A DNA stretch of 64,000 bases. It comes from Octopus vulgaris. Taxonomy: Eukaryota. The notes under the pieces were generated by a model. It did not search any database. It was not told where the DNA came from and was given only the letters and a program-made list of their open reading frames with translations. This document shows positions 23,443 through 24,756 of the stretch, piece after piece. The stretch lies in contig OX597818.1 in NCBI GenBank assembly GCA_951406725.2, positions 145,638,001 to 145,702,000 of the forward strand, in the 5' to 3' direction. The translations under genes were made by a program, and so were the position numbers. Every line of letters starts with the position of its first letter. Position 1 is the stretch's first letter.

Positions 23443-23762
23443 ATTTGAGTAATTGAATGAATTATCTTATTAAGGATAATTCGAAAGATAACCGATACCT
23501 GGGTAGCAAATTCACATCAGAAAGAACACGGTTGAAGCTACGTCCCTAGGGCATAGACTACGTGTCTTCGTGCGGAAATTTGAATGTTTATTTTAAAATT
23601 ATAAGTATATGAAAGAATGGAGTTGAACGACTAGTTAACAAATATCCTTTATTCTCGACATATGTTTCGAAGGCTGCATATTCCTAATTCCGAAGGAATA
23701 AGGAGTACATTATGCAGATTTCTCATCAGGAAAATAAAGGAAATTATGTCGACATCAAAATG

Positions 23763-23765
<3 letters not shown>
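23443..23765 (-). mobile_element. Hammerhead-bearing non-coding element (pLTR/retrozyme-like), copy A
   Basis: (TA)n on both sides. Reverse-complement homolog of 24430-24756, sharing an identical 23-mer TTTGCTACCCAGGTATCGGTTAT. Confidence 0.75.
23641..23745 (-). ncRNA. Type I hammerhead ribozyme motif (HHR1), core intact
   Basis: Minus strand: AATTTCCTTTATTTTC-CTGATGA-GAA...CTGCATA...TATGCAG..TTC-GAAAC-ATAT-GTC-GAGAATAAAGGATATT. Stem I pairs at 15 of 16 positions, G-C closes stem II, and the cleavage triplet is GUC. Confidence 0.88.
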
Positions 23766-23836
<71 letters not shown>

Positions 23837-23874
23837 CATACATACATGCATACATACATACATACATACATATT

Positions 23875-24035
23875 ATTCGACGTGCTTCTACGCAGTTTCG
23901 TCTACTACAATCACTCACAATTTATTAGTCGTCCCGGAAAATCCTTGCCTATGGTGCAGCAGTATGCGATGGAACCCAAAACCATGTGATTGCAAAGCGA
24001 GCTTCTTAACTACATAACTATACCTGCACCTATAG
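23875..24035 (-). mobile_element. tRNA-derived SINE, third family
   Basis: Minus head AGGTGCAGGTATAGTTATGTAGTTAAGAAGCTCGC...GGGTTCCATC with A- and B-box-like spacing. Confidence 0.6.
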
Positions 24036-24429
24036 ATGTTAGCAAAAAAGAAATAGCAGCCAAATCTCCCTCAAACTACGCACAATGCCGTCTTAAGAAA
24101 ATTTGTGATACATTGGATCACTGGTGTGAGTGCTCGAAATGTGGAGTAGATGAACAGCCGACAACTGATGAAGGGTCGTTCTTTATGTTGCTTGTCTTGT
24201 TTTCCATTTGTTTCTCTAGTTGTTTGCGTACACAAAGTTGTCTTCGTATTTCATGTTTTTTTACGTTTTGTGACGTCCCGTACCCATATATGCACACATA
24301 TATAGATATATATGTATGTATGTACATATTTATATGTATATATGCATATAAATAAATATATATATATATTGAGAGATAGTTTTGTGCCATTCATACCATG
24401 GGCTCCTAGAGAGCGTTTGTCGAAAAGCT

Positions 24430-24756
24430 TGCTGCGCATTTTGTTGGAGATTTAAGTTCCTGGATTTTCCTGAAGAGAAAGCTGCAAAATGGTCTCCTTA
24501 TTCAATCCGAATTAGGGACTTTGCAGCCTTTGAAACATATGTAGAAAATAATAAAAAGGAACTTTGTAAAATCTTCGTTCAGCTCCATTTCTTCCCTCAC
24601 TGAATATATAAAACTTCAAATTTCCGCACTAAGGCACGGTTTTGAGACCCCATGGTCGTAACCTCAACCGTGATTTTTCTGTTGTGATTTTTGCTACCCA
24701 GGTATCGGTTATAATTTGAATAATCCGTAACAAGATAATTCATTTATCCATTTCAA
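24430..24756 (+). mobile_element. Hammerhead-bearing non-coding element, copy B
   Basis: Homologous to copy A; ends in (TA)n at 24757. Confidence 0.75.
24454..24564 (+). ncRNA. Type I hammerhead ribozyme motif (HHR2)
   Basis: AAGTTCCT..ATTTTC-CTGAAGA-GAAAGCTGCAAA...TTTGCAGCCTTT-GAAAC-ATAT-GTA-GAAAAT...AGGAACTT. The cleavage triplet is GUA. Confidence 0.82.

What the first reader, a model, noticed from the sequence alone, without database searches (positions are those of the whole stretch)
23443..24756. Inverted pair of ribozyme-bearing ~320-bp elements showing covariation
Seen: copy A (minus, 23443-23765) and copy B (plus, 24430-24756) are clearly diverged homologs pointing away from each other, each ending in (TA)n. 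Stem changes are compensatory: CTGCATA/TATGCAG versus CTGCAAA/TTTGCAG in stem II, and AATTTCCT/AGGATATT versus AAGTTCCT/AGGAACTT in stem I. Variation in the core falls at tolerated sites (N7 U/A; GUC/GUA). A 23-mer TTTGCTACCCAGGTATCGGTTAT is identical at 23488-23510 and 24690-24712. Inferred: the structure was selected in the active source elements, the family prefers (TA)n targets, and the 23-mer may be an RT-recognition or promoter motif.
Basis: partly seen in the sequence, partly recalled or inferred. Interest (0 to 1): 0.75.

Follow-up and report, generated by a model that had tools for sequence, protein, structure and literature searches.

The report
Penelope retrotransposon ends with ribozyme footprint
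These are two separately inserted, cut-short ends of a common protein-coding jumping gene (a Penelope-like retrotransposon), not a special pair; across the genome, short copies of the family stop unusually often at the ribozyme's predicted cut site, which likely means the ribozyme sometimes cuts the RNA that gets copied.

Summary
The two ribozyme-bearing copies and the 23-mer are real. They are not a functional pair. A and B are 76% alike, but each has at least 40 copies at 96-100% elsewhere, and both join an RT plus GIY-YIG ORF in longer copies. They are independent 5'-truncated pLTR+tail ends of two families of a Hydra-like Penelope retrotransposon, inserted in (TA)n. Stem II covaries across families; the claimed distal stem I covariation rests on copy-level changes.

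New here: (1) The 23-mer is the 5' arm of a helix that closes just before the ORF's AUG, with 4 compensatory changes in a distant family, and it encloses the long 3' end (an inferred RT start). (2) In 93 head-to-head junctions, 23 of 186 arm ends fall exactly after the predicted cut site (about 7 expected). (3) The lineage lacks Hydra's CxCX5C linker yet still inserts in (TA)n.

Hydra elements in octopus are published (Hydra-1_Obim, a different ribozyme sequence). This scan found Hydra-type ends before on other DNA. Cleavage, expression and circular RNA are untested.

The parts
23446..23766 (-). Copy A: 5'-truncated pLTR plus long tail of family A
   Evidence: 40 of 40 scored candidates match at 98-100% (2314 first-look candidates); longer copies reach the ORF
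23651..23735 (-). Type I hammerhead motif of A: core CTGATGA 23729-23723, GAAA 23668-23665, predicted cut 23657|23656, long stem II, 2-bp stem III with palindromic loop
   Evidence: sequence, fold, covariation; cleavage untested
23596..23604 (-). TA-like internal site where short-class (S) 3' ends of family A stop; inferred first RT start site
23488..23510 (-). 23-mer in A: 5' arm of the predicted pre-AUG helix; partner strand absent from this stub
23428..23445 (.). (TA)n at the 3' end of A (target)
23767..23873 (.). (TA)n/(TACA)n at the 5' end of A (target)
23874..24290 (.). Unrelated DNA between the copies. 23874-23920 is 83% like the left flank of A, inverted, and the stretch from 23874 recurs in 22 of 254 loci; probably an old SINE end (name recalled, not tested)
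24286..24369 (.). TA-rich microsatellite at the 5' end of B
24366..24756 (+). Copy B: 5'-truncated pLTR plus long tail of family B (unambiguous from 24370)
   Evidence: 40 of 40 scored candidates match at 96-100% (2815 first-look candidates)
24464..24549 (+). Type I hammerhead motif of B: core CTGAAGA 24470-24476, GAAA 24532-24535, predicted cut 24543|24544
   Evidence: cleavage untested
24604..24612 (+). TA-like internal site where short-class 3' ends of family B stop
24690..24712 (+). 23-mer in B: 5' arm of the predicted pre-AUG helix
24757..24773 (.). (TA)n at the 3' end of B (target)

Best explanation
A and B are two independent, 5'-truncated insertions of the repeat end (pLTR plus tail) of two related families of a Hydra-like Penelope retrotransposon, likely written into (TA)n microsatellites by the element's own reverse transcriptase starting inside its RNA. 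Shown: full-length copies run pLTR - tail - about 40 nt - AUG - ORF of about 900 aa (telomerase-like RT, C-terminal GIY-YIG) - about 600 nt - pLTR. Insert 3' ends fall at two fixed TA-like sites about 55-65 (S) and about 212-220 (L) nt after the ribozyme's cut site. Two-armed inserts nearly always join one S and one L arm head to head. Inferred: an RNA that usually starts about 160-175 nt before the cut site is bound by the RT-endonuclease, which nicks both strands of (TA)n and primes at S and at L. The 23-mer helix presents the L site in an unpaired loop. Copying to the RNA's 5' end gives stubs like A and B, and ORF-bearing copies need a read-through (tandem) or circular RNA. Most templates are uncut at the ribozyme, but a minority are cut, which leaves arm ends at +1.
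For: Copy families and ORF link. Protein: AF2 model pLDDT 84.9; top five Foldseek hits are telomerase RTs; residues 654-757 match the I-TevI GIY-YIG domain (Z 9.7, rmsd 2.5, 89 of 92 residues). End classes: 296 of 304 unique pieces are S or L, and 85 of 101 divergent pairs are same-family L+S. Of 92 junctions scored, 87 are long+short, 4 had an arm without a TA run, 1 had a 32-nt arm, and none is L+L or S+S. Neighbours from different lineages are common: 7 of 147 loci of about 3 kb, the window included. Helix: the partner strand lies 4 nt before the AUG; 4 of 11 pairs change on both sides and 94.9% of cells pair; arm pairing probabilities are mostly 0.8-1.0 in 6 of 6 natural copies folded. Cut-site pile-up: 23 of 186 arm ends at +1 against null means of 6.6 and 7.3, 0 of 1000 simulations; neighbours -1, +2, +3 are at expectation; 21 of 82 ends in junctions without microhomology; 5 junctions have both arms at +1 with 1-5 extra bases between. 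Without the discovery set: 15 of 164, Poisson p 0.003. RNA-start step in family A: 16 of 83 arms start at -175..-151 against 1 at -200..-176. Two internal RT start sites defining the tail were shown in vitro for a lizard PLE (PMC11167929, parts 1-2 of 4 read).
Against: No cleavage, expression or binding was measured. Rfam finds no hammerhead here, and Pfam gives no hit above cut-off for these ORFs. The +1 excess is uneven: family B 0 of 3 junctions, the A2/B2 set only 3 of 39, direct joins to microsatellite 0 of 5 loci. My null model has no RT pausing at structure and no preference for microhomology, and the scoring used hand-listed motif variants. All four compensatory changes in the pre-AUG helix lie on one branch (family E against the rest). 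Five family-A junction copies break one pair, and the lower 4-bp part is lost in family C. The RNA-start step is soft in family B (13 against 5 and 4), and half of those loci were chosen for spanning the query. The family A copy whose ORF I examined is broken (L061); the intact frames are from families B, C and E. In vitro the lizard PLE does not need ribozyme cleavage, and no reads ended at its cut site (PMC11167929).
Confidence: 0.85

Rival explanations
1. Same identity, but the +1 pile-up comes from the reverse transcriptase pausing at the end of stem I or from repair preferences, not from ribozyme cleavage; the ribozyme never shapes templates.
For: Microhomology peaks at -2 and -9 are as large as the +1 peak (26 ends each). 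Families differ in the effect. In vitro data show unprocessed RNA as the main template (PMC11167929).
Against: The peak is one nucleotide wide and at a position predicted beforehand. It is strongest in junctions without microhomology (21 of 82), and five junctions have both arms stopping at +1 with extra bases between. A polymerase meeting stem I would first meet its 3' edge, several bases earlier (inference).
Confidence: 0.35
2. The 23-mer helix controls translation of the ORF (an AUG gate or cap-independent entry for cut, uncapped RNA) rather than RT initiation.
For: The helix ends 4 nt before the AUG, and its lower extension can pair up to the AUG in families A and B. A paper links ribozymes to translation initiation in RNA viruses (PMC13725137, search listing only).
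Against: The L 3' ends map to the unpaired loop that the helix closes, as for the AC-rich stem-loop start of PAc. The lower extension is lost in family C. The two roles are not exclusive.
Confidence: 0.3
3. A and B are a non-coding retrozyme family, or a functional inverted pair (one insertion, or a dsRNA/bidirectional device).
For: Short stubs far outnumber full copies. One locus shows three tandem short ends (L112).
Against: The same sequence flanks intact ORFs as direct repeats (L102: 2 differences in 327 nt). Same-family inverted pairs are mostly L+S (85), whereas this pair is L+L of two families. The spacer is unrelated DNA.
Confidence: 0.04

Closest known systems
Hydra clade of C-terminal EN+ Penelope-like elements, including Hydra-1_Obim of Octopus bimaculoides (Craig et al. 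2021, PMC8557442; section 11, passages and supplement rows read)
   Same: RW and DKT motifs, no CCHH, CxxC and CxH around the endonuclease E and N, hammerhead in the pLTR, (TA)n targets, inverted 5'-truncated arm, optional tail.
   Different: No CxCX5C linker (families B, C, D have an Asn/Ser-rich stretch of roughly 150 aa there; E a short one). RWK reads RWL. ORF about 780-900 aa. Tail 146-154 nt rather than 30-40. The hammerhead stems differ from those listed for Hydra-1_Obim.
PAc, Poseidon PLE of Anolis carolinensis (Frangieh et al. 2024, PMC11167929; parts 1-2 of 4 read)
   Same: Two fixed 3' ends downstream of the ribozyme that define the tail, AT-rich targets, start site in an unpaired A/C-rich loop.
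   Different: Here both sites lie before the AUG and about 150 nt apart. Here a genomic excess of ends at the cut site is seen; there no RNA ends were found at it.
Metazoan PLE hammerheads (Cervera and de la Pena 2014, PMC4209133; parts 1-2 of 4 read)
   Same: Type I, long helix II, short palindromic helix III suited to dimer cleavage; dual motifs 100-700 bp apart on opposite strands are already reported.
   Different: Helix II here is about 40-50 nt with internal loops. The loop III palindrome covaries (UA, UG, CG).
Animal non-LTR retrozymes (PMC7229834, listing only; bioRxiv 10.64898/2026.07.22.740005, part 1 of 5 read)
   Same: Short type I hammerhead repeats related to pLTRs.
   Different: These are ends of coding elements, not tandem non-coding units.

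Membership tests
EN+ Penelope-like element | Single ORF with telomerase-like RT | tested here: met
   Open frames of 891-908 aa and 778 aa. The model of family E has telomerase RTs as top five hits. Family A seen only as a broken frame.
EN+ Penelope-like element | C-terminal GIY-YIG endonuclease | tested here: met
   I-TevI domain Z 9.7, T4 EndoII Z 9.9 on residues 626-757 of the family E model. Pfam GIY-YIG only weak in 2 of 32 aligned proteins.
EN+ Penelope-like element | pLTRs as direct repeats, inverted 5'-truncated arm, tail at one end | tested here: met
   the tail is 146-154 nt, longer than the published 30-40.
Hydra clade | RWK and DKT motifs | tested here: met
   RWL variant and SDKT in full frames.
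Hydra clade | No CCHH; CxxC and CxH around the endonuclease E and N | tested here: met
   absence of CCHH by inspection of the translations.
Hydra clade | CxCX5C linker before the endonuclease | tested here: not met
   Absent in all six lineage ORFs that cover the region (B3, B, B2, C, D, E) and in family A's C-terminal frame. Present in octopus families F, G, H, I and in 31 of 35 database homologues (three of the other four end before the endonuclease).
Hydra clade | Insertion into (TA)n | tested here: met
   262 of 272 free 3' ends against 5.3% background.
Hydra clade | Generally under 3 kb | tested here: not met
   In L102 the AUG to the long end spans about 3.6 kb.
Hydra clade | Phylogenetic placement with published Hydra sequences | not tested
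   The tree holds no published reference rows and no outgroup; it shows only nesting among proteins that carry the Hydra motifs.
Type I hammerhead ribozyme | Conserved core, three stems, NUH cut site | tested here: met
   no Rfam model match.
Type I hammerhead ribozyme | Self-cleavage | not testable with these tools
   Only indirect genomic evidence.
Non-LTR retrozyme | Non-coding tandem units independent of an ORF | tested here: not met
   Joined to the ORF in longer copies; one small tandem seen (L112).

The most novel reading that the evidence does not exclude
The genome records in vivo hammerhead cleavage of a Penelope RNA: cut RNAs were reverse-transcribed from two start sites to their fresh 5' end. 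The 23-mer helix is the RT recognition element that presents the long start site, and (TA)n targeting in this lineage needs no zinc-finger linker. Together these give a defined system, with intact ORFs at hand, for testing what PLE ribozymes do and how the tail and inverted arms arise.
Probability: 0.45. Interest if true: 0.68.

Novelty: new variant of a known kind. Interest (0 to 1): 0.42.

Why it matters
The pair itself is ordinary. The family matters for three open points in Penelope biology. Craig et al. call the ribozyme's function unclear, and the one in vitro system found cleavage dispensable; a one-base pile-up of insert ends at the cut site is indirect evidence that cleavage happens in the germ line. 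The RNA element that sets the RT start site is not defined; here a covarying helix encloses it. The zinc-finger linker was proposed to drive microsatellite targeting; this lineage lost it and still hits (TA)n. I found no paper reporting these points in six searches, which cover open-access text only.

Tried and rejected
Rfam: no hammerhead hit; only microsatellite-driven miRNA and other chance matches. The repeat finder over the window was swamped by microsatellites. Pfam and PDB sequence searches gave nothing above cut-off for the ORFs. A single-sequence fold of the endonuclease domain failed (pLDDT 36.6) and was not searched. RNAalifold on the gappy alignment recovered only stem II, so named helices were counted instead. 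The careful tree did not finish; the quick tree is reported.

Sequencing runs: no RNA holder listed. Four contig sets were laid on L102; their RNA status is a guess and contigs cannot show ends, so this is no evidence on expression. The first junction scoring lacked templates for the subfamilies and was replaced. Rows dropped before the count of 93: 2 duplicate hits, 1, and 2 identical junctions that were not fetched. Direct joins to microsatellite showed no +1 end (0 of 5). Alignment A3 held a wrong coordinate and was not used.

Rejected: distal stem I covariation as stated; a retrozyme reading; a single-insertion reading of the pair. R-scape was not available.

Full report
Observation. Both copies are in the sequence and align at 75.9% over 315 columns. 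Each has a type I hammerhead core, a long stem II and a 2-bp stem III capped by a palindrome, and folds better than all 200 shuffles. Rfam has no matching model. The 23-mer is identical at the stated places. B starts about 60 nt further upstream than stated.

Two families, not a pair. In the 2.8-Gb host genome (likely an octopus, inferred from a named Argonauta homologue and from earlier scan notes), A has 40 of 40 scored candidates at 98-100% among 2314 and B has 40 of 40 at 96-100% among 2815. Among 304 unique pieces, 3' ends fall in two classes, S (116) and L (180), with 8 others. Of 101 divergent pairs, 85 are same-family L+S; the window's pair is one of 4 L+L pairs of different families. 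Seven of 147 loci of about 3 kb carry two lineages, the window included, and the spacer here is unrelated repeat DNA. The pairing is a chance neighbourhood in microsatellite-rich DNA.

What they belong to. Longer copies extend into an ORF. A search with the endonuclease domain gave 15,996 first-look candidates, 150 scored. Fetched copies have open frames of 891-908 aa, and L102 carries the A/B-type sequence as direct repeats on both sides of its ORF, the upstream one about 40 nt before the AUG. A model of the related family E protein (pLDDT 84.9) has telomerase RTs as best matches, and its C-terminal domain matches GIY-YIG nucleases. The motifs RW, DKT, CxxC, CxH and no CCHH fit the Hydra clade as defined in PMC8557442 section 11, whose supplement lists Hydra-1_Obim from octopus with a different ribozyme. 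The CxCX5C linker is missing in families A-E, which form one branch (SH-aLRT 100, quick tree, no published reference rows) among linker-bearing relatives. One copy of an unrelated family (L153) also lacks the pattern, through a single residue change. Free 3' ends still abut (TA)n in 262 of 272 cases. I therefore file it as a Penelope-like element that works like Hydra, not as a plain member of Hydra.

Covariation. On 16 natural copies from five lineages, 18 of 65 named pairs change on both sides, against a shuffled mean of 12.4 (0 of 500) and at most 8 in slid controls. Relatedness inflates this test, and the structure was drawn from one of the rows. Stem II has 6 of 11 such pairs. The loop III palindrome goes UA, UG, CG, as dimer pairing would need (inference from PMC4209133).

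The 23-mer. In full-length copies its 3' half pairs with TAACCGATACC, 4 nt before the AUG. Family E changes four positions in each arm and keeps all four pairs. Folding of six natural leaders gives the helix with high probability, and the L end lies in an unpaired A/C/U stretch inside it. Because copying starts inside the loop, stubs such as A and B keep only the 5' arm. Against: the four changes are on one branch, five family-A copies break one pair, and the lower extension is lost in family C. An RT-recognition role is inferred by analogy with PAc (PMC11167929); a translation role is the rival.

The ribozyme's footprint. A first sample showed 6 of 88 internal 5' ends at +1 of the predicted cut. 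Four pattern searches then collected head-to-head junctions near the cut (13, 4, 39 and 42 hits), 93 after dropping 5 duplicates. Arm ends at +1 were 23 of 186 against 6.6-7.3 expected (0 of 1000 simulations), while -1, +2 and +3 were at expectation. In the 41 junctions without microhomology the share was 21 of 82, and five junctions had both arms at +1 with extra bases between. Leaving out the discovery set gives 15 of 164 (p 0.003). The effect is uneven: 5 of 11 junctions in A, 10 of 40 in C/D, 3 of 39 in A2/B2, 0 of 3 in B, and 0 of 5 direct joins. Palindrome joins at -2 and -9 are equally frequent. Such ends are a small minority of all copies; most, A and B included, run through an intact ribozyme. 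A larger step in 5' ends lies at about -175 to -150, just after a shared TGACGTCA motif (16 against 1 in A; 13 against 5 in B), which may mark the RNA start. I looked for this step after reading earlier scan notes.

Mechanism, shown and inferred. Shown: architecture, two end classes, L+S pairing, (TA)n targets, covariation, the +1 excess. Inferred: transcription from the pLTR, nicking of both strands, priming at S and L by a possibly dimeric protein, run-off at the RNA's 5' end, occasional ribozyme cleavage, and a tandem or circular template for ORF-bearing copies. Untested: cleavage, expression, circles, binding.

Literature seen. PMC8557442: passages, section 11, supplement rows. PMC11167929 and PMC4209133: parts 1-2 of 4. 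bioRxiv 10.64898/2026.07.22.740005: part 1 of 5. PMC3846280 and PMC13282606: passages; the latter's main text has no 'Hydra', 'hammerhead' or 'ribozyme'. Others: search listings only. N-rich ORF inserts are already described in rotifer PLEs.

Verdict. The finding as posed is ordinary: two pLTR ends of a known class. The family adds three testable points, so I score it as a new variant of a known kind, interest 0.42.

Noticed in passing
window 25034-27208 (-); fragments at 1746-1900, 21558-21884, 32756-34997, 48501-48824: 724-aa open frame of a non-LTR retrotransposon (RVT_1 E 1e-27, zf-RVT), with decayed relatives elsewhere in the window; R4/Dong-like by recall.
   Followed up: partly
L112:1-890: Three tandem short-class pLTR ends about 428 bp apart behind an ORF: a retrozyme-like array arising from a coding element.
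   Followed up: no
L022:1227-1436: Family E copy in which the two strands of stem I are joined directly and the ribozyme core is missing, with the join at +1.
   Followed up: no
L153-L164 and further hits: A very young linker-bearing Hydra-like family with dozens of near-identical 727-aa open frames; families of 718, 838 and 842 aa also have open frames.
   Followed up: partly
L135-L138, L180: Core variant CCGAAGA/CCGATGA (U4 to C) in several family E copies and one A2 copy.
   Followed up: no
pre-AUG region of L096, L102, L135, L168: Each arm of the pre-AUG helix is preceded by a TGCT(A/G)(A/C)C motif, a pseudo-symmetric layout that could suit a dimeric protein.
   Followed up: no
window 23380-23427 and 23874-23920: The two flanks of A are 83% alike in inverted orientation, so A sits in a microsatellite between two repeat tails; SINE identity recalled.
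   Followed up: partly
window 35045-36342: A 1.3-kb (ATT)n-type array, the longest simple repeat in the window.
   Followed up: no
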